This document shows positions 2,572 to 40,000 of a stretch of 64,000 bases of DNA, in pieces. The first letter of the stretch is position 1, and every line of letters begins with the position of its first letter. The notes under the pieces were generated by a model. It was given only the letters and a program-made list of their open reading frames with translations. It made no database searches and had not been told where the DNA came from. The stretch is from Heterodontus francisci (taxonomy: Eukaryota), in the NCBI RefSeq assembly GCF_036365525.1, contig NC_090404.1:5456001-5520000 (forward strand), read 5' to 3'. Both the position numbers and the translations under genes were made by a program.

Positions 2572-3327
2572 AATATTACCGATCTGGAAATCTATCATTA
2601 CTGAATTGATAAAACATTTTAAACACAAACCACTGTCGGAGAGGGCGCAGGAAGCATTTGTTTAAATGACAGGGAGAGTTCATTCTTTGCGTATATAGTG
2701 GATATCTACCTGGATATTGACAATGTCACTGGACTGGCTCATATTGTAACCTGACCCTCAGTTGCTGGACTGAGGGAAGCTACCGGGTCTGAGGCTCCGT
2801 CCTTCAATTCAGATGTTTAACTGAGGCCCCGCCAGCCCGTTCAGGGAGATGTTAAAGAATCCCCGGCACTATAGGAATAAGAGCGGGAAGGGAGGATTCT
2901 CCCGGTGTCCTGGGCCCACATTCCACCCTCAACAAACACCACCCAACAGAAACACATGCACCGACCTCCCAGCTCATTACTGTGGGTGAAAGGAGGACGG
3001 CAGCCTCTGCTGACAGAACAACTCCCCCAGCCCCACCCCCTGTACATCAGACTAATGTGGGAGGGAATTTCACATCGAGTTCATAGACCCAATGAAGCGA
3101 GAGAAAACTGCAAGTAACCTTTTTAAACCTGTCTCTCATTCACACAGCACACAGCCAGCCACCCGGGAACCGTGCGGCCCATCAAAGATCTCCGGAACAC
3201 TGCCCTCTGCAAATCGATCCCCCTGAAGTATTTCAGTCCAGCTCTGAGGTCCAGTCTCCCAGAGCAGTCCAGGACTGCAGTCTCCAGCTCCCCGTCATAT
3301 AAACCATCAGCTCCAGGCAGCAGAACG

Positions 3328-3800
3328 ATGGGAATCCTCCTTGTTTTCACCCTGTGTGTCTGTTTACCCCGTGAGTACCGATCAAACAAACCGACATTGT
3401 GTGGATTTAATATAAAACTGCCCGAGTCCATCCGAATTACAGTCACTTTCTGGGGTTTTAGCCCCGTTATGTGGTTCGGCTCTGATGGCCCATTAAACTC
3501 TCTCTGTTTAATTTCCAGGCTCTTTCAGTCAGTCAGTGACACAGACCCCGGCAGCGGTGACCAGGAAGGAGTGTCAGTCTCTCACCATCAACTGTGTTTT
3601 CTCTGGTGCTTCATGGGATTATTTCCAAAATGGACATTTCTTCAGACAAACCCAGACCAGCACAGAGCAGGAGCGGATCTCCAGCGGAGGACGATTTGAT
3701 GTGTCTGTGAATAAGGCAAAAAATACATTTTCGCTAGAAATTCTGGATATGAGAGTTGAAGACACCGCCACCTATTACTGTAAAGCTGAGTACAAAGACA
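3328..3800 (+). CDS. NAR-TCR V segment (IgNAR-like V), cassette 1; leader exon 3328-3370, V exon 3519-3800
   Basis: Leader MGILLVFTLCVCLP and a GT..AG phase-1 intron. V reads SVTQTPAAVTRKECQSLTINC...ISSGGRFDVSVNKAKNTFSLEILDMRVEDTATYYCKA: VNAR-like, with C'/C'' (CDR2) deleted and an extra Cys in the A-B loop. Confidence 0.92.
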
Positions 3801-3838
3801 CACAGTGATGGGCCTTGGCTTCCCGCGGTACAAAATCT
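3801..3838 (+). other. RSS of NAR-TCR V (22-bp spacer, 23-type)
   Basis: CACAGTG-22-ACAAAATCT. Confidence 0.9.
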
Positions 3839-4153
3839 CTCACTGCAGATTATCACAGAAACAAATTATTAAAAAGCGGATTGAATCTGCCGTCAAGCCC
3901 CACAGTTCCGTGTCGCACCGTCAGACCACAATCTAGTTTATAATGAGATTGGCATTTTCCAGGTAACATCTGGAGTTATATTAATGCAGAATGTGTGCAG
4001 ATGATGCCGCCATTGCCGGGATTGGTGTCAGTGAATGGTAATTGGGAATGACTGATCACAGTTACAAATCCCTAACACCAGATGGGATCCTGTTCTAACA
4101 GCTGGAACCGGGAACCCTTTAACAATTGTCCCCACATCTCGCCAAGTACAGGG

Positions 4154-4223
4154 GGATTTGATGCTGACTTGAAGCACAGTGTTTATTGGGCTGGCCACAG
4201 TGGGAGAGACCTGAGCAAATACC
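4154..4223 (+). other. NAR-TCR D segment (4182-4195, TTTATTGGGCTGGC) flanked by 12/12 RSSs
   Basis: GGATTTGAT-12-CACAGTG [D] CACAGTG-12-GCAAATACC. Confidence 0.88.
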
Positions 4224-4547
4224 TCTATACAATTGAAATAGAAATTCCCAGGGCTCGGATGCTAAATTGCAGGTTTGATGTTATTATCGCTGTAATATGG
4301 TTTCATTTTATTGTAATTTTCTCCTTTCTATTATCTTTCTCTGAAATTTTTCTCAATTTCTATGAAGCGTCCATCTCTGGCCCGTGTTTCTGGGCCATTT
4401 TACCAAGAGCTCAGAGTCTCACAAAGAACAGTTGGTATCGACAGGGAATATGAAACATGGAATATTGTTTATTAGTCTCAAATCCCTCGAATAATTGGGC
4501 AGCACCGACTGTCTGGTGATGTGTAACCAGCAGATTGAGGTGTCGGT

Positions 4548-4639
4548 AGTTCTTGCACAGGGATGACTGAGAGCGGTATCACTGTGTTCCAAGATTAAAT
4601 ACGTGGATGGATCCGGGACAGTGGTGACTGTCACAGCGG
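4548..4639 (+). other. NAR-TCR J segment (4587-4639) with 5' 23-RSS
   Basis: AGTTCTTGC-23-CACTGTG, then SKIKYVDGSGTVVTVTA (NAR-type xGxGT motif without W/F) and a phase-1 donor GTAAGT at 4640. Confidence 0.9.
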
Positions 4640-5329
4640 GTAAGTGACTGCAAACCCTGCCGTGCAGCTGACTGTCAGACTGAATGTTCACCCTCAGTTT
4701 ATTATTGCGAACAATATCACCTCAATCTCTTGAAAATAAAACAGAGCAGTTTCCTCATGGACATTTTCCACTGCAGTTTTAGATTCAGGGCAGACTATGA
4801 ACCGTGAGTCGGGTGCAGGTTTGGGTCTGGAGACATGAGGAGAAATTCCCACAGAGAAGGCAGTCTGTGGGGTGCGGACCTCATCTGGACCATCGCAGGT
4901 TTAGCGTGGACTTCGGAGGATCCCCAAAACATCCCAAACTCTTTCTCACTCTGATCCACAGTTGATTTCAATGAGTGCAGATTGTCGAGACTCCGGCCTC
5001 CGCTCACCCTCTTCACTGTGACTGAGTAAACTCTGCCTGTCCCTGTGAGCATGGGAGAGGGTGACAGAATATTCCATTCCGGGATGGGCAGTGTGAATGT
5101 GGTATCGGGAAACTGAGCCCACCACTGCAGCGGCTCCTTTGACACTTGCAGCCACATGTCTGATGCCGTCAGTTAAATAGGGGACATAGTATATTCCCAA
5201 TGCTAATTTAGCAAGTTTGAAAAGCTAAGTCAAGGCTGTAGAGCTGAGTACCGATTTGGGTGAAATCCAGCAGTTTGAGTCAGGAAGTGATGGATGGATT
5301 AATGAGAGTAATAGGCCCTGGACGACTAA

Positions 5330-8300
5330 GGCCAGATCAGGGAAAAATAGGAAAACACTAAAATGAAAGACGTTACATCTGAATGCACGAAGCAATTGTA
5401 AGACGACAGATTGATTAATGGCATAAATACAGATCAATGTAATTGATCTAGGAGGATTACTAAGACATGGATACAGAATGACAAAAGTTCGGAACTAAAT
5501 ATACAAGAGTACTTGACTTTTGGGGAAAAAACTAGGCAAAATGAAAAAGACAACGGGTAGGCCGGATAATAAAGGATGAGATAAAGGCAGTATTGAGAAA
5601 GGATCTAACACCAAAAAGTCAGGATCTAAAATCTGTATGGTGCAGCTAGGAAATAACAAAGCGCAGAAAATATCAGCACATTTAAAGTAATCATGTTGTT
5701 AGAGAGAGTATAAATCAGGAAGTTAGAAGAGCATGTACCATGATGAATACAATAATCATGGGGGCCTGTAATCTCTATGTAGAATGAGCAAAGTAAATTG
5801 ACAAAAGTAGATGGGAGAATAAGTTTCAAGACTGCATTCGAGACACCTTTCTCGAACAATATGTTGCGGAAAGTAACTTTGAAATTGACTATCTCAGATC
5901 TAGTGCTTTGACACGAGACTGTATCAATTCATTATCTGAAAGTAAAGGATATTCTGGGGAAGAGTGATCATAAGATGATAGCTGTCATCTTCAATTTGCG
6001 CGTAATGTGGTCAAGCCCGAAACTGGGTTCTTATTTTTAAAGGCCAATTACGGAGTTATGAAGGAAGTGCAGGGTGAGCTAGATTGGAAGTCCAGATTAA
6101 AATCTATAATGTTCGATGAACAATTGTAAACAATTAAATAAATAATTTACAATTCTCAACGAACATACATTCCATTGCGGAATGGACAACTCCATTGGAA
6201 AAATGGTATAGCCATGTATAGTTAGAGAAGTTAAAGATCGTGTAACATTCAAATGAGAACCTTACAATGTTGTCAGAGTAGTAAACCTGAAAATTAGGAG
6301 GCTTTTAAAAATCAGCAAAGAATGACCACAAAATGATGAAGAGGGAGTAAATGAAATATGACAGTAAACTAGCATGAAAAATGAAAACAGATTGTAAGAA
6401 CCTTTGCAATTTTGTTAAAAGGAAGAGAGCAGTGAAAGTAAACGTGGGCTCTTAGAAGCAGAGACAGGAAAAATCTCTTTCGATATTTTGTGTCTGCATT
6501 TACAGTAGAGGACATAAAGAACATAATGGAAATTGTGGAGAACCAAGTGAAGAAGTTAAAGCATTTAATATTAATAACAAAGACGCTGAATAAATTAATG
6601 GGGCTAGAAGCTACACATCTCCTAGAACTGATTGCCTAGTCCGAGGGTCTCAAAAGGGCGAATGAAATTATTGGTTTGATCTCAGAATTCTCTCGATTCT
6701 GGAACGGTGGATTGGAACTGAGAAAAAGTTATCCCGTTGCTCCAGAAAAGAGAGACAGAGACAACAGAGACATATAGGCCAGCTACCATCAGTAATATCC
6801 CAAATAATAACAAAAATGGGAGATGGTAATAGGACAACCGGAAAATCATAATAAAATTATGCAGAATCAACATGGCTTTATGAACAAGAAATGATACTTG
6901 AGAAATCTATTCGTCTTTTTTGAGGTTTCACTAGAAGGGTAGTTAAAAACGAACCAGTGGATGAAGTATATTTGGATTTTCAGAAGGCATTCGATAAGGT
7001 GCCACACAGCAGGCTGTTACACAGGAGTAGAGCTCATGGGATTAGGAGTATTATAATAGCATAGATTTAGGATTTGTTCAGTGACAGGAAACAGAGAGTA
7101 GGAATAAATAGACCATTTTGGGGATAACAGGGTGTAACTAGTAACATACGATCGGAGTTTGAGCCTTAGTTATTTCCAATCTATACCAATGACTTCGATG
7201 AGGGACCCAATATAGTATATCCAAGTTTGCTGATCATATAAAGCTAGGTGGGAAAATAAGTTGTGAGGAGGGTGCAAGCGTGCTGCAAAGAGACAAAGAT
7301 AGGTTAAGTGACTGGGAAAGAAAGTGGCAGAAGGAGGATATTGCGGGAAAGTGTGACATTATTACATACATAGGCTTACATAGTTTATGCGTGGGTTTCC
7401 TCCGGGTGCTCCGGTTTCCTCCCACAAGCCAAAAGACTTGCAGGTTGGTAGGTAAATTGGCCATTATAAATTGTCCCTAGTATAGGTAGGTGGTAGGGGA
7501 ATATAGGGACAGGTGGGGATGTGGTAGGAATATGGGATTAGTGTAGGATTAGTATAAATGGGTGGTTGATGGTCGGCACAGACTCGGTGGGCCGAAGGGC
7601 CTGTTTCAGTGCTGTATCTCTAAACTAAACAAGAAGCAGGCCTTTCGGCCCAAATAGTTCATGTTGGTGCTCATGCTTCACTCAAGCCTCCTCCCATCTT
7701 TCACCATCTAATCTATCATCGTAACTGGCAAATCCCGTCTTCCCCATATGCTTATCTAGCTTCCTGTAAATGCATCTATACTATTCACTTCAACCACGCC
7801 CCATGGTAGCAATTTCCACATTCTCCCCATTATCTGAGTAAAGAAGCATCTTCTGAATTGCCTATTGGATTTATTGGTGACTATCTTTTACCGATGGCCT
7901 CTAGTTATTCTTCTGCCCACAAGTGGAAACATTCTCTACTTTATGAAAACTTCCATAATTTTGAAGACCTCCATTAGTTCATCCCTCAACCTTCTTTATT
8001 GAAGAGCAATAAGACACAGCCTCTTCATCCTTTTCTGATATGTCGACCCACGCATTTCTGTTATCTTGTAAATTTTCTCCGCACCCTTTCCAGTGCCTCC
8101 GAATCCTTTTTATAATAAGACGACCTGAACTGCATGCATTACTCTTAGTGTGGTCTAATCAAGGTTCGATACAAGTTCATCAAAGCTTCCCTACTTTTCA
8201 ATTATATTTCTCTAAAAATAAAGCCTATTGCCTTGTTTGCTTTTTTACGGCCTTGCTAAACTATCGCTTAACTTTTAGCAATTGGTGCATTTGTACTCCG

Positions 8301-9075
8301 AGATCCCTTTGTTCCTCTACCCCACCGGGACTCGCACCTTCCAAGTGATTAGTGACCTCCTACCAAAAAGTATCATCTCACATTTATCTGTGTTGAATAT
8401 TATTTGCCAATTATTTGCCCATTCTGCAAGGTCATTAATGTCTTCCTGTAATTTGTTGCAGTCCTCCTCAGTATTGACTACCACCCATCCTCCCAGCACA
8501 GCAACAACACCCCCCCCTCCCCCCACCACCGTCAGCCCCACCTCCACCACCCCAGCACCCAAAATTTTCTGTAATCCACACATTTAAAAATTGATGTTTT
8601 GATTCTGAAGTTCAAATCGTTAATATAAATTGTGAACAGCAGTGGTCCCAGCTCTAATCCTTGGAGAAAAACAATTCCCAGCGTCTGACATTCTGATTAA
8701 CTATCCTTTTACTCCTGCTAAAGTTGTTTGCCAGGGTACAGTTGGAGAAAATGTTTTCAGTTATCAGCTGGCCGATAACAAAGAGCCATAAATGTAAGAT
8801 ATTAATTTACTGAACAAATAAAGACATTAGGAAGAATTTATTTACACAAATAGAAGTCAGGACGTGGAACTCGCTGTCACAGTGAGTAGTTGGAGAATAT
8901 GGCCTTGATGTACTTTAGGGGAGGCTTGTAAAATATATCAGGGAGAAAGGAATAAAGGGACAAAGAGGTCAGGATGGGAAAAGGTTATTAAAGTGTGAGG
9001 TGGCTCCTGTGGAGTATAAAATCAGACATAGGCCAGTTGAGCCGAAAGGCCTGTTCCTATTCTGCAGAGTCTGTA
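5330..9075. mobile_element. Cluster of old CR1 ORF2 fragments (+ 5330-7375; - 7630-8700; + 8720-9075) in the J-to-supporting-V intron
   Basis: Degenerate endonuclease and RT motifs (e.g. FQKAFDKVPH, EEDCNKLQEDINDLAEWANNWQ). Confidence 0.8.
7388..7630 (+). mobile_element. HE1-like shark SINE, 5'-truncated
   Basis: Same body and tail (gggcctgtttcagtgctgtatctctaaactaaac) as the full copy at 19472. Confidence 0.8.
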
Positions 9076-10029
9076 CAATATTAAAATGAGAGAAACTCTG
9101 CTTTGTGAACAGGATAACTACTCAGCCAATGGGTGTACGAATTGAAAATATCAGACAGCCGGAAGAGCTAGTTCCCAGTGAGTAACAGTTAAACCACTGC
9201 GGAAACTGCACAGACTGAACCCAACCGACAACTGAGAGAGTTTGGGACAAGTTCTCACGATGACAAAAACCGCAAACAATTGAGTGACCCAGATTTAGAA
9301 GTAAAATGAAAATACCAATATGAACTCGCAAGTAAAGGGAAACGGGACAAAACAGTACCCTTATTGTGAAAAACGCAAACAAATAGAGCTTCAGGGAGAC
9401 AAAAACTCTGTTGAAGAGTGAAACTACAATTAAATTCTGATCTCCTTAAATACAGATGTTAAGCATCACTTGGCTCCACCATGTTCATGAATCTCACTGC
9501 TTTCTGTTGGATCTTGCTGTGCTCAGTTAAACATAACAAAACTGGGCGACGATCGATCAAACATTGTGAATGGTGATTGTCTCCGTGAGGCCGAGAATAT
9601 TCTATTGACTGTTTCGACTGTCTGTCTTTCACAAAGAAATTAGAAACAGAAATGTCATAGAAACTTGAGTCTGATAGAGCACAGAATGAAGTCATTCGGT
9701 CCATCTTTCCCGTGCCGGCTCTGTGAAAGAGATAGTCAAATAGTTCCATTGCCCTGCTCGTTCCCCATAGCCCTGATAATTCTTCCATCTCCATTAACAA
9801 TCCAATTCCCTATTATTGAATCCGCTTCCACTGCCTTTCCAGGCAGCGCATTCCGGGTCATAACAGCACTCTGTGTGAATAATCTTCCCAGTAAAAATTA
9901 AGAAAGTTCGAACGGACTTCAAATGAAGAACAGCATTACCGCGGAAGGCGGTGCCCTGTCTGTGATTGACAAGTGTCTCCGGGTAAACAGCAACTAACAA
10001 CATAATAATATCATCTTTTCATTCTGCAG

Positions 10030-10335
10030 ATTCCAGTTCCCTGGTCTCCCAGAGTCCGCTTCGACAAACCGCTGCTGCCGGGGACACTGCTACTTTCAGC
10101 TGCAAATATTCCGGGATCTGTCAGTACACAGTAAACTGGTACAGTCAGTCCACAGGGCAGACTCCGAAATACCTGCTTCAAGTACTCAACTCAGGAGCGC
10201 AGAATAAAAAGACTGCAGCCGGGGGACGAATTTCTGCTTCTATCGATCCTGCCGAGAAAATCAGCCGGTTAGAAATCTCCAAATTACAACTGAGCGACTC
10301 CGCTGTGTATTACTGTGCACTGAGTCGGCGCATAG
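10030..10335 (+). CDS. Leaderless supporting TCR-delta V exon of NAR-TCR cassette 1
   Basis: Acceptor ttctgcag is in frame with the J donor (G|AT = Asp). V reads DSSSLVSQSP...FSCKYSGICQYTVNWYSQ...LSDSAVYYCALSRRI, with an extra Cys in CDR1. No hydrophobic leader exon was found upstream. Confidence 0.9.
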
Positions 10336-10693
10336 CACAGTGATACAGAGCACGGAGAGAGCTGTACAAAAACCTGAACATGGTGTGGATTACAGTCACA
10401 GTGATACAGAGCACGGAGAGAGCTGTACAAAAACCTGAACATGGTGGGGTTCACGGACATGGCACAGTGATACAGAGCACGGAAAGAGCTGTACAAAAAC
10501 CTGAACATGATGGGAATTACAGACACACAGTGATACAGAGCACGGAAAGAGCTGTACAAAAACCTGAACATGGTGGGGTTCACGGACATGGCACAATGAT
10601 ACAGAGCACGGAAAGAGATGTACAAAAACCTGAACATGTTGGCAATTACAGACAAACAGCGACACCGAGCAGGGAGGGAGCTGTACAAAAACC
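10336..10693 (+). repeat. Tandem array of six 23-RSSs
   Basis: Heptamers at 10336, 10397, 10463 and 10526 (CACAGTG), 10592 (CACAATG) and 10655 (AACAGCG). Each is followed by a 23-bp spacer and ACAAAAACC; periods are 61/66/63/66/63. Confidence 0.95.
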
Positions 10694-10724
10694 TGAACGT
10701 ACCAACAATAAATTCATGGCTGAA

Positions 10725-11500
10725 CTGTTTGCTCCACATTCCCTCCTATCCGCGATAACTTTCCACCCCTTCCTTATCAAGAATCGATCTACCTCTGCCT
10801 TAAAAATATTCAAAGACTCTGTTTCCACCGTCTTTTGAGAAAGAGAATTCCAAAGACTCACACCCTCTGAGAGAGAAAAAATTCCTCATCTCTGTCTGAA
10901 ATGGGTGTTCCTTTATTTTTAAACAGTGAACCCTAGTTCTAGATTCTCTCACAAGAGGACACATCCTTTCCACATCCACCCTGTCAAGACCCTTCAGGAT
11001 CTTATATGTTTCAATCAAGTCGCCTCTTACTCTTCTAAATTCCTGCGGATACAAGCCTAGCCTGTCCAATCTTTCCTTGTAATACACACATTCCAGGTGT
11101 TATTCTCTGTACTGCCTCCAACGCATTTACACCCTTCCTTAAATAAGGAACAATACTCCAGATGTGGTCTCACCAATGCCCTCTATAGATGAAAAATAAC
11201 CTCCCTACTTTATCATTCAATTCTCCTCACAATAAATGATAACATTCCATTCGCTTTCCGAATTACTTGCTGTACCTGCATACTAACCTTTTCTGATTCA
11301 TGCACTAGGACACCCAGATCCCTCTGCATCTCAGAGCTCTGCAATCACTCACCATTTAGATAATATGCTTCTTTTTTAATCTTCCACCCATAGTGGACAA
11401 TTCCACACTTGCCCACTTTATACTCCATTTGCCAGGACTTTGCCCACTCACTTAACCTATCTATATCCCTTTGTAGCCCCCCCTGTGTCCTCTTCACAAG
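10725..11500 (-). mobile_element. CR1 LINE 3' fragment
   Basis: ORF 10800-11087 reads RRVRGDLIETYKILKGLDRV. Confidence 0.85.
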
Positions 11501-11608
11501 ATAATCCAGAGATTATTGCCTTTGAGGTTCTACTTTTTTAATTTAGCCCGAGCTGCTCATGATCCCGAAACAGAAACTCTTTCCTGATCCTACCTATGTT
11601 ATGGGAAC

Positions 11609-13362
11609 TGTCAAGACCGAGGTGGGAGTAATGCACTGTCAATTCAGTGCCACCACTCCACAGGTCGCACCATAGTATTAAAGTTGTCCCACCCACCAGA
11701 AAACAGACACATTAAACATTTTATTAATCCCCAGAATAAAATACACTAAAACCTGGAAACTTTAGACGACAACAAATTAGCTATTTATTAATAAACTAAA
11801 TCTTAAACACTATTGAGATAACTTTATGGCTAAAGACCTTATAACTTCTTTATTGTCATAACCACCCTCCCCCCATGCACACACACATCGGGCTGAATTT
11901 TACCAGCACCTCGATGTCATGGGTCATGGAGCGGGGACCGGTAAAATTCTGCAAAGAGAGGCCCGCCTCGACCCGTGACCCGTGACATCGGTGAGGACCC
12001 GGAGCCTATTACCGGCAGCGTGGGAACCTTAGTTCAACCACTCACGCACGACCACCGCCACCACCACCCCCCCCCATCCCCTCCCACCGCCACCCCCGCC
12101 GCCTGGGTCATCTGCATATGCATATTGTACCAAATGTGATGCAAATAAATTTAACGGCCATCCCACACCGATTTTACGGCCACCGTTCATCTTTCGCGCA
12201 CCTTCGGAACTGCGCACCGAGTTCTGAGTTGAGAACCTGGGTGGATGAATACAATTTTCAGGGCGGGAGGGGTAGAGAAGCGGGGAGATCAATTTTTATT
12301 AGATGTGGGGATGGTTAGAAAGGGTTATAGGCCAAATGTTAGAAGTTGTGGGTAAAGTTCAGGGAGGGGAAAAAAGGCATGTTTTGATTATTCTGTGGAA
12401 TTGAAATGACCATTGATGGGTTGGGGAAGGGCCTCATATCTTTATTACCTGTTTAATAAAAAATGTCGTGTACTTTGCCTTTAAAAAATAAAACTTCATC
12501 TGTGGGCTTAAAGCCCTTTAAAAATGGCGCCGGCGCCTGTGCTGTGGCGCCTGACGCCGTTGCCGCTGGTCCACCCCGCATGTAATATCATGGGAGTTCC
12601 TCCGCGGCACCTCTGTGTCGGCGGCCGCCGAGTTGAAAGCATGTCGCCGCGGAAAACGGGCACGTGATTAAAATTCAGTCCAGATATTCAAAACTCAATG
12701 GTTAACCGGTTTTAAACATAGTATTTCTTGGGAATAAAATAAGTGGCTGCTTTTTAAGTCCTGCTGGGTTACGTTCCCGGTTGATGAGGTGTCCCAGAGT
12801 ACAATAAGCAGATGCCACTCGAAGTCTCCAGGCGACAAAACAGTCTTTAATAGATAGGTATTCAAAACATTTCAACTGCAGCAGGTGTCACACAATTCTG
12901 TCAACGAGGAATATAGCAACAGGTCTATTTGGATTTAGAAATTGGTAGTTTTTTAGTAGAAACTTTACTGAGAATTCCAGCACACACAAACAGACGAAAG
13001 AGAGTCACTCTTGAAGCAAATAATTCCGAAGTGAAAAGGAATTTCTAGCATCAACAATGCAAATGCTTTTTCCAGGGTTTCTTTCTCCTTCGACAATACA
13101 CAACCTAAACATAAATGTAGATTTTCCTGCTAAGTGTGCATTCTGCACACTTCGCTGATCTCAAGGTTAGTCTGGTTTTTGCTGGTTTTTACACACAGTC
13201 AAACGTTGCAGTACAACATGTGACCTCCCACTCCTGCTGTTGCCTAGGAAACATGTACAGCTGCTGGCACACTGTGCCCCTTCGTTTTTAAAAGAACACT
13301 GTTTTTAAACAGAGTGTTCAAGGCAGACTGTTTTAAATAGAAGGGGGGAAAGTTCCATGACA
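11609..13362 (-). mobile_element. Probable solo LTR inserted in a CR1 ORF1 relic
   Basis: TGTCA...TGACA termini with a near 4-bp TSD (gaac/gcac). One end resembles the sequence at 28855-28922. Confidence 0.55.
11890..12681. mobile_element. Non-autonomous DNA transposon (MITE-like) nested in the LTR
   Basis: Terminal inverted repeats gggctgaatttta / taaaattcagtcc. Confidence 0.55.
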
Positions 13363-28922: not shown

Positions 28923-28949
28923 CATTCAAATGTAAAAGACAATTGGATA

Positions 28950-31900
28950 AATACTTGACGTGTAAAACTTATGTATCAAACAGACAGGTTGCGTGTGCTC
29001 TTTAAAGTTGCTCCCATCAAGCAGATGAGAGTTGGTGTCTGCATGGACATTAGGACCCTGCGGCAGTCCATCCGGCGGTAACGTGAGGTCGATTCAACCG
29101 TCCGCCATGTTTGTGTGCTGAGCTGTGCTCCAGAGGTGCCCTCTTGCCCTGACTATCGTTTCCCCATCTCCCCTGTCAGATTACTGGAGCTTTTGACCGC
29201 GGCTTGTTCACAGGGTTTATTTGATCAGTGTTGCTGGCTCAGAGGCAGTTTATATGCAATGAACTGATTTCAGAAGATAGTGACTGTGACCTTTAAAACA
29301 AGCCCCAAGAACAGAGTTCCCCCAATGTACATTATCCTTCCAAGTGTCTCTTCATTCTCTGTAAATGCAACTGGAAACTCTGAATATTACAGACCAGGAA
29401 ATTAATCATTACTGAATTGAAACATCATTTCAAATACAAACCACAGAAGGGCGGGGTGGGGAGGTGGGGAGGTGGGGTGGGGGTGGGGAGGTGGGGTGGG
29501 GAGGTGGGGAGGTGGGGTGGGGGGTGGGGAGGTGGGGTGGGGCTGGTGGTGGGTGCTGAAGCATTTGTTTAAATGACAGGGGGAGTTTATTCCTTGTGTA
29601 CATTGTGTATATCAACCTGGATATTGACAATGTCACTGGACTGTCTCATTTTGTAACCTAACCCTCAGTTGCTGGACTGAGAGAAGCTGCCGGGTCTGAG
29701 GCGCCGTCCTTCAGATCAGACATTTAACCTAGGCCCCGCCAGCCCGTTCAGGGAGATGTTAAAGAAACCCCCGGCACTATTGGAATAAGAGCGGGGAGGC
29801 AGGATTCCCCCGGTGTCCTGGGCCCACATTCCACCCTCAACAAACACCACCCAATAAAAACACAGGGAGCGACCTCCCAGATCATTACTGTGGGGGAAAG
29901 GAGGGCGGCCGCCTCTACTGACAGAACAACTCCCCCAGCCCCACCCCCTGTACATCAGACTAATGTGGGAGGGGATTTCACATCGGACTCACAGACCTAA
30001 TGAAGCGACAAAAAACTGCAGGTTCCCTCTTTAAACCTGTCACTTATTCACATAACACACAGTCAGAGACCCGGGAACCGTGCGGCCCATCAATGATCTC
30101 TGGGACACTGTCCTCTGCAAATCCGCTAAAGTATTTCAGTCCATCTCTGAGGTCCAGTCTCCGGTAATAGCGTCTGAGCCGACGAAGGCCACAGCAGGGA
30201 AAAATAGGAAAAAATAAAATGAAAGGCTCTATATCTGAATTTACGCAGCATTTGTAAGAAGACAGATGAACTAACGACACAATTGGGGATTAATATATTT
30301 GATCTTGACGCCATTGCTATGACATGCTTACAGGGTGACTAAAGTTAGGAACTAAATATACTTGACTTGACTTTTGGAAAAACTAGACAAAATGAAAAAG
30401 GAAACGGGATAGGCCAGATAATAAATGATGAGATAAAGGCAGTCGTGAGAAAGGATCTTAGACCAAATGTTAGGATCAAAAATTAGTACGGAGCTACGAA
30501 ATAAGAAAGCGCAGAAAGCACGAGTGGATTTAAAGCAATCATGTTAGATGGAGTATAAATCAGCAAGTTAGAGGAGCATGTAATATGGCGAATGCAATAA
30601 TCCTGGGGGAACTGTAATCTCTATATAGGGTAAGCAAACCAAATTGACAAAAGTCGATTGGAGGACGAGATTCTGGAATGCATTCGAGACACATATCTCG
30701 AACAATATGTCGAGGAAACTAACTACGGAATTGACTATCTAATGTTTTGTAACGAGACTGTATTAATTCATAATCTTAAAGTAACGGATCCTCTGGGAAA
30801 GAGTGATCATAACATGATAGATGTCATACTTAATTTGAGAGTAACGTGGTTAAGCCCGAAACTAGGGTGTTAAAATTAAAAAAGGCCAATTACAGAGGGA
30901 TGAGGGGTACACAAGCTGAGCTAGATTGGGAGTTTAGATTAAAATATATAATGTTCAACAAGCAATGGCAAACATTTAAATAAATAATTCCCAATTCTCA
31001 ACGAACATACATTCCCTTGAGGAATAGAAAACTCCACTGGCAAACTGGTGTGGCGATGGATAGCCCGGGAAGTTAAGGACAATATACAATTGGAATAAGA
31101 AGAATACAATGTTGTCAGAATAGTAAGACTGCAAAGGATGATCACAAAATGATAAAGAGGGGACAAATAGAATATGACAGCAAATTAGCAAGAAGTTTGA
31201 AAACAGATTGTAAGAAATTCTACATGTATGTTCAAACGAAGGGAGTAGTGAAAGTAAACGTGGCCTCTTAGAAGCAGAGACAAGAGAATTTATAATTGGG
31301 AAGAAGGAAATGGCCGACACCTTAAACAGATATTTATGTGTCTGCGTTTGTAGTAGAGGAGGCAAATAACATAATGGAAACTGTGGAGAATCAAGTGTCT
31401 AATTAGAGAGAAGGAGTTAAAATAATTAATATCAATAAAGAAAAGATACAGGAAAAAATAATGATATTAAAATCTCACAAATCCCCTAGAAGCGATTTCC
31501 AAAGCCTAGGGTTTTTAAAGAGGTATCTACAGAGATAGTGGAATTATTGCTTTGATCTCAGAATTCTCTAGATTCTGGAACAATACCCGTGGATTAGAAG
31601 GTAGAAAATGCAACCTGTTGTTCCAGAAAAGAGATACAGAGAAAACATGGAACTATAGGCCAGCTAGCATCATTACGATATACAAAATACTAGAATCTAT
31701 TATTGGGAACATAGTGATAGGGAAATCGGAAATTCATAATACAATTAGGCAGAATCAAAATGGCTTTATGAACGAGAAATCCTACTTGACAAATCTATTT
31801 GCGTTTTTGAGATTTCACTAAAAGGTAGTTAATAAAGAAACCACATTCTCCAGCCTTATTCATTATCTGTTATGGGATACCTCTTGCAAGGCGTTTTGCA

Positions 31901-34100
31901 AAAAAAAAAACCCAGATACAGTGCATTCAGTGCGTTACCATCGCCTACTCTCTCTGTTACCTCCAAAAAATCAATAATACTATCCGTTTTGACAGGAATC
32001 ACAATCACAGAGCGTTAACGTGCCGGTACAGAAAGCAATTGGGAAGGGAATTGATATGTTCGCCTTTATTGCAAGGGCGTTGGAGTGCAAGAGTAAGGAC
32101 GTCTTGCTACAATTATCTAGCGCTTTGCTGAGACTAAATCTGTTGTTGTCATTGACTGAATATTCGCAGCACTTCAGTTGACAGGAGTCCAAATATTTAC
32201 AGTTCGCTGAATGAAGGAATTACTTTTGATCACAGCCCTTGGCTGCTTCAGAGAACCAACACGGACACGACGGGCCGAATGAGCTCCTTCTGACCTGTAA
32301 CCACATATTGAATCTATATCATTCATTGACCTTGGCCTTTGATCCCTAGTTCCAGGTTCTCCACATTGGCCATATGGTCTACTGTTTCTCATCGCTCTTA
32401 TATTGTTACCTTGTGTTCTTAATAATACCACAGGACAATTCAGGAGGAACGTCTTCACTCAGGGAGTGGTTGGAATGTGCAACTCGCTATCACGTCGAGT
32501 AGTTGATAGGAACAAAATCAATGCATTCAAGGGGAAACTACCATAACACATGAGAGAGAAAGAATGGAGTGATACCTTCATAATGTGAGGTAATATAGAG
32601 TTGTAAGTTGGCTCGTGTGGAGCATAAGCACCGCATGGACAGGTTAGGCCGAATGGCCTGGTTATGCTGTGCATCTGGGTTGGTCTATGTAATACATGTT
32701 TCTCGTGTATGAGAGATAGGTTTGCAGGAATCCATCTGTATCCTTGGTTGCTGTTAATGAAAATAACAATTGGCAGTGAGCGAGTCAGGTCGAGCTACTA
32801 ATGTTGTGACAAAAGGAGCACAGGAACAGCCGAGAGAACGAGTGCAGATTGGAAGAAAGTAAATTTAGAACCAGCAAGAAATAATTCACCGAAAGGGAGA
32901 AGAATACCGGACTTCGCCGGCCAGACGGGAGTCTGGAGATACCGATCTCAGGGCTGTTCAAATACAATACAAAGCCGGGAAGTGAGCTTTGCTGGAGGGA
33001 CGGACTGCGACTGGACTCTGGACTTTTCCTCAATTTTGGATTTCTAATACTCCTGAGAAAATACATCAACAGCAATCCACACCTATCTGGAAAGATTCAA
33101 TAGCCTGAGGTTTTTTTTTATCTCTGGTAAAGAGAAGACCTCGAGGAGACCTGGTGGACATAATTAAAATGCTAAAGTTGTTCGCTCGGGTGCAGGTGGA
33201 GAAAATGTTTTCACTTGTCGGCGAATCCAGAACAAAGAGCCATAAATATAAGAAATTCACCGACAGAATAAATAAAAACATTAGGAAGAATTTATTGACA
33301 CAGAGTGGAACTGTCTGCCACAAGGAGTAGTTGCAGAATATAGGATTGATGCACTTCAGGGGAGGCTTGAAAAATACAATAGAGAGAAAAGAATAAAGGG
33401 ACAAAGAGGTCAGGATGGGAAGAGGTAATGAAAGTGGGAGGAGCCTCCTGTGGAATATAAAATCAGGCACAGACCAAGTGGGCCAAATGTCTCTTTCCTG
33501 CTCTGCAGATTCTGTACAATATTAACGCACAGGGTAGATGTCAGCCAATGGGCTGTAGGAATTGAATTTGTCAGAGAGATGAAAGAGCAGGTTCCCAGTG
33601 AGTAACAGTAAAAACAACCGCGGAAACTGCACAGACTGAAACCAACCGACAACTGAGAGACTTTGGGACAAGTTCCCAGGATGGCAAAATCCCAAAATAG
33701 TCACAAAATGAACGACCCAGACGCAGAAATAAAATGAAGTACCCATATAAATCTGAGATTAAAGTGAAATGGGGCAAAACAGGCCCCTTCTTGGGAAAAA
33801 ATTAAACACATCGAGCTTGAGGCAGGCAGGAGTTCCCTTGAAGCGTGTAACTGCAGTTAAGCTCTGATCTTCAACACACAGATGTTAAGCGTCACTTGGC
33901 TCAGTCGTGCTCATGAATCTCACTGCTTCCTGTTGGAACTTTCCGTGCTCAGTTAAACATATCACAGTGAGACAGAGCACGACGAGAGCTGGACAAAAAC
34001 CTCAACATGGTGGGGATTACAGACACACAGTGATAGAGAGCACGGAGAGAGTTGTACAAAAACCTGAACAAGGTGGGAATTACAGACACACAGTGATCAC
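28950..34100 (+). pseudogene. Third, diverged NAR-TCR cassette lacking both coding modules
   Basis: Colinear with 330-747, 2572-3259, 5308-6940 and 8750-9535. It jumps over leader-V-D-J at ~30162 and over the supporting V at ~33962. Confidence 0.8.
33963..34095 (+). repeat. Orphan tandem 23-RSS array (two full RSSs plus a third heptamer)
   Basis: CACAGTG at 33963, 34026 and 34089; ACAAAAACC at 33993 and 34056; 63-bp period; truncated by a CR1 3' end. Confidence 0.9.
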
Positions 34101-36518
34101 AGAATTATAGAATTGTTACAGCGCAGAAGGAGGCCATTCGGCCCATCCTGTTCGCACCGGCTCTCTGAAACAGCAATTCCCTCAGTCCCACTCTCTTTCG
34201 TCTGTTTGTGTGTGCTGGAATTCTCCGTAAAGTTTCTACTAAAAGACTACCAATTTCAAAATCCAAATAGACCTGTTGCTATATTCCTCGTTGACAGAAT
34301 TGTGTGACACCTGCTGCAGTTGAAATGTTTTGAATACCTATCTATTAAAGACTGTTTTGTCGCCTGGAGACTTCGAGTGGCATCTGCTTATTGTACTCTG
34401 GGACACCTCATCAACCGGGAACGTAACCCAGCAGGACTTAAAAAGCAGCCACTTATTTTATTCCCAAGAAATACTATGTTTAAAACTGGTTAAACATTGA
34501 TTTTTGAATATCTGGACTGAATGTTAATCACGTGCCCGTGTTCCGCGGCGACGCGCTTTCAACTCGGCGGCCGCCGACACAGAGGTGCCGCGGAGGAACT
34601 CCCATGATATTACATGCGGGGTGGACCACCGGCAACGGCGTCAGGCGCCACAGCGCAGGCGCCGGCGCCATTTTTAAAGGGCTTTAAGCCCACAGATGAA
34701 GTTTTATTTTTTAAAGGCAAAGTATACGACATTTTTTATTAAACAGGTAATAAAGATATGAGGCCCTTCCCCAACCCATCAATGGTCATTTCAATTCCCC
34801 AGAATAATCAAAACATGCCTTTTTTTCCCTACCTGAACTTTACCCACAACTTCTAACATTTGGCCTATAACCCTTTCTAACCATCCCCACATCTAATAAA
34901 AATTGTTCCCCCCGCTTCTCTACCCCTCCCGCCCTGAAAATTGTATTCATCCACCCTCCCCACCAGGTTCTCAACTCAGAACTCGGTGCGCAGTTCCGAA
35001 GGTGCGCGAAAGATGAACGGTGGCCGTAAAATCGGTGTGGGATGGCCGTTTCCTGCAGTTAAATTTATTTGCATCACATTTGGTACAATATGCATATGTA
35101 GATGACCCAGGCGGCGGGGGTGGCGGTGGGAGGGGATGGGGGGGTGGTGGTGGCGGTGGTCGTGCGTGAGTGGTTGAACTAAGGTTCCCACGCTGCCGGT
35201 AATAGGCTCCGGGTCCTCACCGATGTCACGGGTCACGGGTCGAGGCGGGCCTCTCTTTGCAGAATTTTACCGGTCCCCGCTCCATGACCCATGACATCGA
35301 GGTGCTGGTAAAATTCAGCCCGATGTGTGTGTGCATGGGGGGAGGGTGGTTATGACAATAAAGAAGTTATAAGGTCTTTAGCCATAAAGTTATCTCAATA
35401 GTGTTTAAGATTTAGTTTATTAATAAATAGCTAATTTGTTGTCGTCTAAGGTTTCCAGGTTTTAGTGTATTTTACTCTGGAGATTAATAAAATGTTTAAT
35501 GTGTCTGTTTTCTGGTGGGTGGGACAACTTTAATACTATGGTGCGACCTGTGGAGTGGTGGCACTGAATTGACAGTGCATTACTCCCACCTCGGTCTTGA
35601 CAGTTCCCATAACATAGGTCGGATCAGGAAAGAGTTTCTGTTTAGGGATCATGAGCAGCTCGGGCTAAATTAAAAAAATAGAACCTCAAAGGCAATAATC
35701 TCTGGATTATCTTGTGAAGAGGACACGGGGGGGGCTACAAAGGGATATAGATAGGTTAAGTGAGTGGGCAAAGTCCTGGCAAATGGAGTATAAAGTGAGC
35801 AAGTGTGGAAATGTCCACTTTGGCTGGAAGAATAAAAAAGAAGCGTATTATCTAAATGGTGAGTGATTGCAGAGCTCTGAGATGCAGAGGGATGTGGGTG
35901 TCCTAGTGCATGAATCAGAAAAGGTTAGTATGCAGGTACAGCAAGTAATTCGGAAAGCTAATAGATTGTTGTTGTTTATTGCGAGGAGAATTGAATACAA
36001 AAGTAGTGAGGTTATTTTTCATCTATAGAGGGCATTGGTGAGACCACATCTGGAGTATTGTTCCTTATTTAAGGAAGGGTGTAAATGCGTTGGAGGCAGT
36101 ACAGAGAATAACACCTGGAATGTGTGTATTACAAGGAAAGATTGGACAGGCTAGGTTTGTATCCGCAGGAATTTAGAAGAGTAAGAGGCGACTTGATTGA
36201 AACATATAAGATCCTGAAGGGTCTTGACAGGGTGGATGTGGAAAGGATGTGTCCTCTTGTGAGAGAATCTGGAACTAGGGTTCACTGTTTAAAAATAAAG
36301 GAACACCCATTTCAGACAGAGATGAGGAATTTTTTCTCTCTCAGAGGGTGTGAGTCTTTGGAATTCTCTTTCTCAAAAGGCGGTGGAAACAGAGTCTTTG
36401 AATATTTTTAAGGCAGAGGTAGATCGATTCTTGATAAGGAAGGGGGTGGAAAGTTATCGCGGGTAGGAGGGAATGTGGAGCAAACAGTTCAGCCATGAAT
36501 TTATTGTTGGTACGTTCA

Positions 36519-36747
36519 GGTTTTTGTACAGCTCCCTCCCTGCTCGGTGTCGCTGTTTGTCTGTAATTGCCAACATGTTCAGGTTTTTGTACATCTCTTT
36601 CCGTGCTCTGTATCATTGTGCCATGTCCGTGAACCCCACCATGTTCAGGTTTTTGTACAGCTCTCTCCGTGCTCTGTATCACTGTGACTGTAATCCACAC
36701 CATGTTCAGGTTTTTGTACAGCTCTCTCCGTGCTCTGTATCACTGTG
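36519..36747 (-). repeat. Tandem array of four 23-RSSs
   Basis: Heptamers at 36741-47, 36680-86, 36614-20 (CACAATG) and 36551-57 (degenerate); nonamers GGTTTTTGT at 36709, 36648, 36582 and 36519. Confidence 0.95.
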
Positions 36748-37053
36748 CTATGCGCCGACTCAGTGCACAGTAATACACAGCGGAGTCGCTCAGTTGTAAT
36801 TTGGAGATTTCTAACCGGCTGATTTTCTCGGCAGGATCGATAGAAGCAGAAATTCGTCCCCCGGCTGCAGTCTTTTTATTCTGCGCTCCTGAGTTGAGTA
36901 CTTGAAGCAGGTATTTCGGAGTCTGCCCTGTGGACTGACTGTACCAGTTTACTGTGTACTGACAGATCCCGGAATATTTGCAGCTGAAAGTAGCAGTGTC
37001 CCCGGCAGCAGCGGTTTGTCGAAGCGGACTCTGGGAGACCAGGGAACTGGAAT
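36748..37053 (-). CDS. Leaderless supporting TCR-delta V exon, cassette 2
   Basis: ORF 36740-37078; the protein is identical to that of 10030-10335. Confidence 0.9.
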
Positions 37054-40000
37054 CTGCAGAATGAAAATATGATATCATTATGTCGTTAGTTGCTGTTTAC
37101 CCGGAGACACTTGTCAATCACAGACAGAGCTCTGCCTTCCGCGGTAATGCTGTTCTTCATTTGAAGTCCGTTCGAACTTTCTTAATTTTTACTGGGAAGA
37201 TTATTCATACAGAGTGCTGTTATGACCCGCAATGCGCTGCCTGGAAAGGCAGTGGAAGCGGATTCAATAATAGGGAATTGGATTGTTAATGGAGATGGAA
37301 GAATTATCAGGGCTATGGGGAACGAGCAGGGCAATGGAACTATTTGACTATCTCTTTCACAGAGCCGGCACGGGAAAGATGGACCGAATGACTTCATTCT
37401 GTGCTCTATCAGACTCAAGTTTCTATGACATTTCTGTTTCTAATTTCTTTGTGAAAGACAGACAGTCGAAACATTCAATAGAATATTCTCGGCCTCACGG
37501 AGACAATCACCAGAAAGCAGTGAGATTCATGAACATGGTGGAGCCAAGTGATGCTTAACATCTGTATTTAAGGAGATCAGAATTTAATTGTAGTTTCACT
37601 CTTCAACAGAGTTTTTGTCTCCCTGAAGCTCTATTTGTTTGCGTTTTTCACAATAAGGGTACTGTTTTGTCCCGTTTCCCTTTACTTGCTAGTTTATACT
37701 GGTATTTTCATTTTACTTCTAAATCTGGGTCACTCAATTGTTTGCGGTTTTTGTCATCGTGAGAACTTGTCCCAAAGTCTCTCAGTTGTCGGTTGGGTTC
37801 AGTTTGTGCAGTTTCCGCAGTGGTTTAACTGTTACTCACTGGGAACTGGCTCTTCCGGCTCTCTGATATTTTCAATTCGTACAACCCATTGGCTGAGTAG
37901 CTATCCTGTTCACAAAGCAGAGTTTCTCTCATTTTAATATTGTACAGACTCTGCAGAATAGGAACAGGCCATTCGGCTCAACTGGCCTATGTCTGATTTT
38001 ATACTCCACAGGAGCCACCTCCCACTTTAATAACCTTTTCCCATCCTGACCTCTTTGTCCCTTTATTCCTTTCTCCCTGATATATTTTTCAAGCCTCCCC
38101 TAAAGTACACCAATGCCATATTCTCCAACCACTCACTGTGACAGCGAGTTCCACGTTCTGTCTTCTATTTGTGTAAATAAATTCTCCCTAATGTCTTTAT
38201 TTGTTCAGTAAATTAATATCTTACATTTATGGCTCTTTGTTATCGGCCAGCTGATAACTGAAAACATTTTCTCCACCTGTACCCTGGCAAACAACTTTAG
38301 CAGGAGTAAAAGGATAGTTAATCAGAATGTCAGACACTGGGAATTGTTTTTCTCCAAGGATTAGAGCTGGGACCACTGCTGTTCACAATTTATATTAACG
38401 ATTTGAACTTCGGAATCAAAACATCAATTTTTAAATGTGTGGATCACAGAAAATTTTGGGTGCTGGGGTGGTGGAGGTGGGGCTGACGGTGGTGGGGGGA
38501 GGGGGGGGGTGTTGTTGCTGTGCTGGGAGGATGGGTGGTAGTCAATACTGAGGAGGACTGCAACAAATTACAGGAAGACATTAATGACCTTGCAGAATGG
38601 GCAAATAATTGGCAAATAATATTCAACACAGATAAATGTGAGATGATACTTTTTGGTAGGAGGTCACTAATCACTTGGAAGGTGCGAGTCCCGGTGGGGC
38701 AGAGGAACAAAGGGATCTCGGAGTACAGATGCACCAATTGCTAAAAGTTAAGCGATAGTTTAGCAAGGCCGTAAAAAAGCAAACAAGGCAATAGGCTTTA
38801 TTTTTAGAGAAATATAATTGAAAAGTAGGGAAGCTTTGATGAACTTGTATCGAACCTTGGTTAGACCACACTTAAGAGTATTGTGTGCAGTTCAGGTCGT
38901 CTTATTATAAAAAGGATTCGGAGGAACTTGGAAAGGGTGCGGAGAAGATTTACAAGATGATAACAGAAATGCGTGGGTCTACATATCAGAAAAGGATGAA
39001 GAGGCTGTGTCTTATTGCTCTTCAATAAAGAAGGTTGTGGGATAAACTAATGGAGATCTTCAAAATTATGGAAGTTTTGATAAAGTAGAGAATGTTTCCA
39101 CTTGTGGGCAGAAGTACAACTCGAGGCCATCGGTAAAAGATAGTCACCAATAAATCCAATAGGCAATTCAGAAGATGCTTCTTTACTCAGATAATGGGGA
39201 GAATGTGGAAATTGCTACCATGGGGCGTGGTTGAAGTGAATAGTATAGATGCATTTACAGGAAGCTAGATAAGCATATGGGGAAGACGGGATTTGCCAGT
39301 TACGATGATAGATTAGATGGTGAAAGATGGGAGGAGGCTTGAGTGAAGCATGAACACCAACATGAACTATTTGGGCCGAAAGGCCTGCTTCTTGTTTAGT
39401 TTAGAGATACAGCACTGAAACAGGCCCTTCGGCCCACCGAGTCTGTGCCGACCATCAACCACCCATTTATACTAATCCTACACTAATCCCATATTCCTAC
39501 CACATCCCCACCTGTCCCTATATTCCCCTACCACCTACCTATACTAGGGACAATTTATAATGGCCAATTTACCTACCAACCTGCAAGTCTTTTGGCGTGT
39601 GGGAGGAAACCGGAGCACCAGGAGGAAACCCACGCATAAACTATGTAAGCCTATGTATGTAATAATGTCACACTTTCCCGCAATATCCTCCTTCTGCCAC
39701 TTTCTTTCCCAGTCACTTAACCTATCTTTGTCTCTTTGCAGCGCGCTTGCACCCTCCTCACAACTTATTTTCCCACCTAGCTTTATATGATCAGCAAACT
39801 TGGATATACTATATTGGGTCCCTCATCGAAGTCATTGGTATAGATTGGAAATGACTAAGGCTCAAACTCCGATCGTACATAACGTTACTAGTTACACCCT
39901 GTTATCCCCAAAATGGTCTATTTATTCCTACTCTCTGTTTCCTGTCACTGAACAAATCCTAAATCTATGCTATTATAATACTCCTAATCCCATGAGCTCT

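What the first reader, a model, noticed from the sequence alone, without database searches (positions are those of the whole stretch)
33900..34100. Orphan RSS array whose V was deleted up to the heptamer
Seen: the sequence follows cassette 1 up to gctcagttaaacata (~9535) and then, 1 nt later, starts CACAGTG. About 0.8 kb including the supporting V is missing. Heptamers, nonamers and the 23-bp spacing are perfect, while spacers, linkers and the rest of this cassette are clearly diverged, so the array predates the split of the cassettes. Established: RAG cuts at the heptamer edge, and sharks carry germline-joined Ig genes. Inference: the signal elements were under selection, and the deletion may be a scar of germline RAG cleavage.
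Basis: partly seen in the sequence, partly recalled or inferred. Interest (0 to 1): 0.72.

Follow-up and report, generated by a model that had tools for sequence, protein, structure and literature searches.

The report
Germline RAG scars in shark NAR-TCR
A dead shark T-cell-receptor gene cassette has lost its V segment exactly up to a recombination signal, likely because the lymphocyte DNA-cutting enzyme RAG cut there in a germ cell; sister cassettes carry the same tandem signal repeats and several ready-joined gene pieces, but the leftover signals show no good sign of being preserved by selection.

Summary

Selection on the orphan signals is not supported. The contrast is 0/39 vs 9/96 (p=0.04, post hoc); 16 of 69 adjacent unit pairs in the family are equally perfect; a retroposon broke the third RSS.

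The family is the stronger result. 24 of 26 NAR-TCR supporting V genes carry 63-bp tandem RSS arrays, and pieces from two other species show them too. 6 of 17 array breakpoints fall at the heptamer edge (about 1 expected). Palindromic (P-like) insertions sit at V ends, and the genome holds V-D, D-J and duplicated in-frame V-D-J joins.

A RAG-initiated germline break is the best reading (0.6), ahead of RAG-independent microhomology deletion (0.3). The junction is not confirmed outside the assembly. Two look-ups in the scan's own notes showed no earlier report of this array.

The parts
33963..34001 (+). Orphan 23-RSS unit 1 (heptamer, 23-bp spacer, nonamer); its 5' edge is the deletion junction
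34002..34025 (+). 24-bp linker of the 63-bp repeat unit
34026..34088 (+). Orphan 23-RSS unit 2 (34026-34064) and linker
34089..34097 (+). Third heptamer plus 2 spacer bases; rest of the unit lost
34098..34189 (.). Retroposon-like tail that truncates unit 3 and is itself cut by the end of the inverted cassette 2; 5 copies among the fetched loci and window, this one included; class (CR1/SINE tail) recalled
   Evidence: (very high depth)
33962..33967 (+). Junction: one T (A in paralogues) plus CACA(G) shared by the upstream site and the heptamer
33913..33952 (+). Likely vestigial leader exon of the lost supporting V (no GT donor); the break lies 10 nt behind it. Inferred from the sequence
   Evidence: NAR J is joined directly to the supporting V in an RNA-type run
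30162..30163 (+). Second deletion in the same cassette (about 2 kb, NAR V-D-J lost); neither end at an RSS, 1-nt microhomology: internal control for RAG-independent deletion
28949..34097 (+). Cassette 3: dead NAR-TCR cassette lacking both V genes (left end approximate)
3527..4640 (+). Cassette 1 NAR V (RSS at 3801), D (RSSs at 4181- and 4196+), J (RSS at 4586-)
10030..10699 (+). Cassette 1 supporting V (10030-10335) and six-unit RSS array; TGG insertions at two heptamer edges
36514..37053 (-). Cassette 2 (inverted, 97-98% alike to cassette 1) supporting V and four-unit array

Best explanation
The array is the leftover tail of a family-wide 63-bp tandem 23-RSS repeat in a dead NAR-TCR cassette, and its V was likely lost when RAG cut at the heptamer edge in a germ-line cell and the intact signal end was likely joined to a CACA(G) site at least 0.8 kb upstream. 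Shown: the array, the deletion, the microhomology, and joined V-D, D-J and V-D-J pieces in sister cassettes. Inferred: RAG made this particular break; the joint formed either by microhomology end joining on the first bases of the signal end, or as a hybrid joint with the upstream site acting as a weak 12-type cryptic RSS in the same orientation; the orphan RSSs have since drifted neutrally. The arrays likely expand by ordinary unequal exchange that re-seeds them from the selected first RSS, with RAG scarring them now and then.
For: (1) RAG-type joins in sister cassettes: V-D-J with the same junction in two copies only 92% alike (994/1080), one in frame and open; D-J with AA before a J starting TT; V-D with the D's 3' RSS kept. 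(2) 6 of 17 hand-listed independent array/foreign breakpoints lie at the heptamer edge; p=4e-4 at a 4/63 null, 1.5e-3 at an 8% microhomology null, 7e-3 with the orphan left out. All 3 V-less array starts begin at a heptamer. (3) Palindromic insertions at V ends with the heptamer intact: AG+CT (two haplotypes on separate branches) and CT+AG; 1/256 for the minimal two events. (4) The upstream site ranks 2nd of 24 and 2nd of 30 CAC sites under a family 12-RSS matrix. (5) P regions in germline-joined shark Ig (PMC2193156); hybrid joints arise in inversional geometry (PMC2699138); nearly half of RSS-end insertions hit cryptic RSSs (PMC2118463).
Against: A 4-5 bp microhomology explains the joint without RAG: 1-3% of V-deleting 5-bp microhomology pairs, and 5-10% of those ending in the array, land at a heptamer start. 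RAG-independent deletions occur in this very cassette (NAR V-D-J) and removed V plus array in L030. Four of the 6 edge breakpoints are LINE junctions, so a LINE-specific preference is not excluded. Array-internal small indels are only weakly enriched under minimal counting (3 of 11, p=0.03; 3 of 7 within the linker, p=0.10). The T at the junction is uninformative: it is not a P base of a full-length end, and the orphan's private substitution rate is 7.5%. The cryptic RSS needs a 13-bp spacer and scores low (1.2 and 4.4). Event lists and their independence were judged by hand, and gene conversion could merge some.
Confidence: 0.6

Rival explanations
1. RAG-independent microhomology-mediated deletion (end joining or replication slippage) between the intronic CACA(G) and a heptamer; the heptamer edge is a coincidence.
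For: CACA at the upstream site in 7 of 13 paralogous loci and CACAG in the two most similar. Another large deletion in the same cassette ignores RSSs. Microhomology background of 5-10% within arrays.
Against: Chance predicts about 1 edge breakpoint among 17, and 6 are seen; 78-88% of edge events are estimated to be edge-specific. RAG-type joins exist in sister cassettes. Microhomology at the very end of a break is also what end joining of a RAG signal end would use (established knowledge, recalled).
Confidence: 0.3
2. One reading: the orphan RSSs are kept intact by selection, for instance as RAG decoys or loading sites for the neighbouring cassette.
For: 0/39 vs 9/96, Fisher p=0.041; P(0 of 39 at 7.5%)=0.047. 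Raw family counts show slightly fewer changes in downstream signals (62/1075 vs 205/2522, p=0.007, units not independent). The array is retained in two other species.
Against: The test is post hoc. On distinct variants there is no protection (29/48 vs 74/141, p=0.87). Downstream heptamers change at 33/490 against 1/175 for V-adjacent ones. 16 of 69 adjacent pairs are equally perfect, and the orphan's variants recur in other units. The third RSS was broken by an insertion.
Confidence: 0.07
3. The junction is somatic (a lymphocyte clone) or an assembly chimera.
For: No contig from the source-like sample was seen to span it; only one individual's whole-genome data were listed.
Against: Both sides are unique in the genome (best other matches 88% upstream; 4-5 mismatches per unit). 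The junction occurs once. A single clone would not normally dominate an assembly consensus (inference).
Confidence: 0.03

Closest known systems
Germline-joined shark Ig genes (nurse shark NS4 light chains; Lee et al. 2000, PMC2193156; abstract, section 17 and part 1 of section 20 read)
   Same: RAG-like joining fixed in the germline, with P bases and trimmed ends; partial VD joins are mentioned there; joined and split relatives coexist.
   Different: Here the locus is TCR alpha/delta (NAR-TCR), and the products include non-coding-joint types: a retained signal end, and P-like insertions with the RSS kept. In that paper the RSSs were completely excised.
NAR-TCR, the doubly rearranging shark TCR delta (described in PMC12227049, PMC6795676, PMC5931798, passages read; Criscitiello 2006 and Ott 2021 not held, not read)
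   Same: A VNAR-like V with D and J lies upstream of a supporting V; NAR J is joined to the supporting V in an RNA-type contig.
   Different: The passages read mention neither tandem RSS arrays behind the supporting V nor germline-joined NAR V-D-J.
Hybrid joints and RSS-end insertions at cryptic RSSs (PMC2699138, passages; PMC2118463, abstract); open-and-shut joints (recalled)
   Same: Signal end kept intact and joined to a coding-type end; same-orientation geometry; cryptic CAC target; no target-site duplication.
   Different: Described as somatic events in mouse lymphocytes; here they would be inherited. The cryptic RSS is weak and the joint is also explained by microhomology.

Membership tests
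NAR-TCR cassette | IgNAR-like V with its own D and J and RSSs upstream of a TCR V | tested here: met
   Top PDB hits are VNAR (E 8.5e-21); D and J with RSSs. In cassette 3 these parts are deleted, so membership rests on flank homology.
NAR-TCR cassette | NAR VDJ spliced onto the supporting V | tested here: met
   An RNA-type contig (X5, RNA is the tool's guess) joins J sequence to the cassette 1/2 V at 37054.
NAR-TCR cassette | Supporting V joined to delta D-J-C | tested here: inconclusive
   One contig leaves the V at 36748 into CDR3-like sequence; the C region was not identified. The PDB search gave only generic V domains.
RAG-mediated joint | Break exactly at the heptamer 5' edge, signal end intact | tested here: inconclusive
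   The heptamer is intact, but the break can lie anywhere in the 4-5 bp CACA(G) overlap.
RAG-mediated joint | P or N bases or trimming on the coding side | tested here: inconclusive
   A single A>T at the orphan joint fits a substitution equally well. Met at other family sites.
RAG hybrid joint | Partner RSS obeying 12/23 in inversional orientation | tested here: inconclusive
   CACAGCT + 13 bp + weak nonamer, rank 2 of 24 and 2 of 30, low score.
RAG signal joint | Two heptamers fused head to head | tested here: not met
   No CACTGTG upstream of the junction.
Germline-joined antigen-receptor gene | Join inherited rather than somatic | tested here: inconclusive
   Met by inference for L045 (same junction in two copies 92% alike). 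Not shown for the orphan junction.
Selected (functional) orphan RSS | Signals conserved over spacer and linker after loss of the V | tested here: not met
   Borderline p=0.04 post hoc; no protection on distinct variants family-wide; third unit broken.
Selected (functional) orphan RSS | Cleavage in thymocytes | not testable with these tools
   Needs ligation-mediated PCR or END-seq.

The most novel reading that the evidence does not exclude
Tandem RSS arrays behind shark NAR-TCR supporting V genes are germ-line RAG hot spots: RAG cuts them in germ cells and the breaks are fixed as open-and-shut scars, hybrid joints, deletions and LINE captures, so RAG drives the birth and death of these TCR cassettes and has also made an inherited, in-frame NAR V-D-J.
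Probability: 0.35. Interest if true: 0.8.

Novelty: new variant of a known kind. Interest (0 to 1): 0.55.

Why it matters
Germline RAG activity in sharks is known from coding joints in Ig clusters. If the reading holds, this locus shows the full range of RAG by-products fixed in the germ line of a TCR locus, including gene-destroying ones, so RAG acts as a heritable mutagen at RSSs and not only as a gene joiner. The 102 aligned repeat units give a measurable substrate for the old question of how often RAG acts in shark germ cells. The tandem RSS array itself, shared by three species, raises a testable question about how the two rearrangements of NAR-TCR are ordered. The single orphan array, taken alone, is only a remnant in a pseudogene.

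Tried and rejected
Independent confirmation of the junction: no RNA holder listed, and whole-genome holders from one sample only. No listed contig spanned the junction; holes prove nothing. The targeted-capture run of a second animal covered only the repeat.

Signal joint: rejected, no opposed heptamer.

'TG' after the linker in L023/L027 as P bases: rejected, those bases belong to the LINE. The TGG insertion in cassettes 1/2 is kept as ambiguous, because ACATGG occurs earlier in the linker. The L040-group array end was left out of the edge count (it may be a decayed unit), as were two ancestral-type ends; counting all three as non-edge gives 6 of 20, p=1.2e-3. Two AC-slippage-compatible edge deletions and one 10-bp deletion in L022 were dropped before the indel counts.

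Resumed arrays further downstream: none in 10 further stretches of about 9 kb.

Linker as a CTCF site or D segment: compared by eye only; poor CTCF fit, no 5' 12-RSS in the scan; not pursued. Read-through of a downstream RSS as coding sequence: stop codons in the heptamer or right after the nonamer. The open/broken V tally used a crude motif test and is not relied on.

Literature: 'tandem RSS'+shark 0 papers; open-and-shut+germline+shark+RAG 0; NARTCR 2 papers; searches listed nothing on the arrays (listings only). The two most relevant papers were not held. No supplements were read; those and unheld papers may describe the arrays.

Full report
Setting. The window is part of a shark TCR V array (G000:C34) with three related cassettes: c1 (about 2850-13005, +), c2 (44183-34190, inverted, 97-98% alike) and c3 (about 28950-34100, +, about 75% alike). 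c1 holds a VNAR-like V (best PDB hits VNAR), a D and a J with RSSs, then 6.5 kb on a second V followed by six tandem 23-RSSs. A contig from a run guessed to be RNA joins the J to that second V. This is the NAR-TCR layout (PMC12227049, PMC6795676, passages read).

Observation. c3 follows c1 to AAACATA, has one T, and then begins a perfect RSS at 33963. Two full units follow; the third stops 2 nt after its heptamer at a retroposon tail. c3 has also lost its NAR V-D-J by a separate deletion of about 2 kb with no RSS at either end, so it is a dead cassette.

Better references change the junction. The genome holds 26 supporting-V matches, all examined here. The two upstream regions most like c3 (88% and 87%) read AAACATAA|CACAGCTGG at the break; 7 of 13 loci have CACA and 2 have CACAG. 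The tree places c3 in an unresolved group with these two, away from c1. The joint therefore lies in a 4-5 bp microhomology made of the heptamer's first bases, and the T replaces an A. At a private substitution rate of 27/359 that base decides nothing.

Selection. Orphan signals differ from the consensus at 0 of 39 sites and the rest at 9 of 96 (p=0.041). The test is post hoc, all 7 variants checked recur in other units, and 16 of 69 adjacent unit pairs elsewhere are equally perfect. Family-wide, V-adjacent heptamers are conserved (1/175 changed) and downstream ones are not (33/490). Raw counts favour downstream signals slightly (62/1075 vs 205/2522, p=0.007, units not independent), but distinct variants do not (29/48 vs 74/141, p=0.87). 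I reject selection on the orphan.

The array. There are 29 arrays with 102 units, and 24 of 26 V genes have at least a second heptamer. All 55 exact hits of a 21-nt unit pattern lie on this contig. Contigs of two other species carry the same linker and repeat beside homologous V sequence, so the array is older than this species. The 14-unit array has a recurring higher-order pattern with clean junctions, which fits ordinary unequal exchange; distal units are often the most decayed, which fits re-seeding from the selected first RSS (inference). Its function, if any, is open. My best guess is extra RAG loading, or non-productive cuts that delay the supporting-V step; nothing here tests that.

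Footprints of RAG in the germ line. First, joined segments: a V-D-J with one junction in two copies 92% alike, one of them open and in frame through J (C34:7874158; the other has a stop in V); a D-J with AA before a J that starts TT; a V-D that keeps the D's 3' RSS. Second, palindromic insertions at V ends with the RSS kept: ATAG+CT, GGAG+CT and GGAG+CT+AG, on separate branches of the V tree. Indels are tolerated at V ends, so only the palindromy counts: 1/256 for the minimal two events. Third, breakpoints. From I listed 17 independent array/foreign junctions by hand. Six lie at the heptamer edge (the orphan, two other V-less array starts in L034, and array ends in L043, L023/L027 and L047) against about one expected; p=4e-4 to 1.5e-3, and 2.5e-3 to 7e-3 without the orphan. 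Four of the six are LINE junctions. Small indels inside arrays point the same way but weakly under minimal counting (3 of 11, p=0.03; p=0.10 within the linker).

Mechanism. RAG cutting leaves a blunt signal end that starts with CACAGTG (PMC2118463, abstract and opening text). Joining that end to an upstream CACA(G) by microhomology gives the observed sequence, and so does a hybrid joint with the upstream site as a same-orientation cryptic 12-type RSS (rank 2 of 24 and 2 of 30, low scores, 13-bp spacer; hybrid joints in inversional geometry, PMC2699138, passages). A RAG-free deletion gives it too: 5-10% of microhomology pairs ending in an array start at a heptamer, and RAG-free deletions are present in c3 and in L030. 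The family excess implies that about 80% of edge events are edge-specific. Discounting for the microhomology and for a possible LINE effect, I put RAG initiation at 0.6.

Limits. The junction is seen only in the assembly. Germline origin is argued, not measured, and is firmest for the duplicated V-D-J. Event independence is a manual judgement.

Comparison. Germline joining with P bases is known for shark Ig (PMC2193156; abstract, section 17 and part 1 of section 20 read). Eight paper searches found no description of tandem RSS arrays or of germline-joined NAR-TCR, but the two key papers were not held and no supplements were read. The scan's own notes showed other RSS-side repeats in this genome (CTCF-like) and no look-alike of this array.

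Verdict. The feature is real; the selection claim fails; the RAG-scar claim is probable but unproven at this site; the family-wide pattern is the result worth following. New variant of a known kind, interest 0.55.

Noticed in passing
L045, G000:C34:7874158 and 7875283 (-): Two tandem copies of a fully joined NAR V-D-J with identical junction; one is open and in frame, with a supporting V of open frame about 6 kb downstream. A candidate inherited, ready-made NAR-TCR domain.
   Followed up: partly
L040 G000:C34:7806625 (-) and L029 G000:C34:11269697 (-): Partial joins: D-J with two P-like bases; V-D with the 3' 12-RSS retained.
   Followed up: partly
NAR V 3' ends, D and J 5' ends of about 15 cassettes: Strong length variation right at the heptamer edge among paralogues otherwise about 88-92% alike; may be further open-and-shut scars or selected CDR3 diversity.
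   Followed up: no
window c3/c2; L030/L031; L026/L024; L034/L035; L046/L047: NAR-TCR cassettes recur as convergent (tail-to-tail) pairs; in two of the five pairs the + member has lost its supporting V.
   Followed up: no
L034 2997-5415 and 6924 to L035 3650: Two arrays interrupted by LINEs; both resume exactly at a heptamer with 29 and 21 bp of the unit missing, and one LINE appears to lack its 3' tail, as expected of capture at a double-strand break.
   Followed up: partly
window 37508-37512: Cassette 2 has its own deletion of about 60 bp that removes the site homologous to the orphan's upstream break and the end of the vestigial leader.
   Followed up: no
window 3801 and 43227: The NAR V RSS has a 22-bp spacer, as do the paralogues shown.
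   Followed up: no
window 24979(-), 46190(-), 47992(-), 54241(-), 63028(+): Five other TCR V-like segments with single RSSs or decayed ends; no tandem arrays behind them.
   Followed up: no
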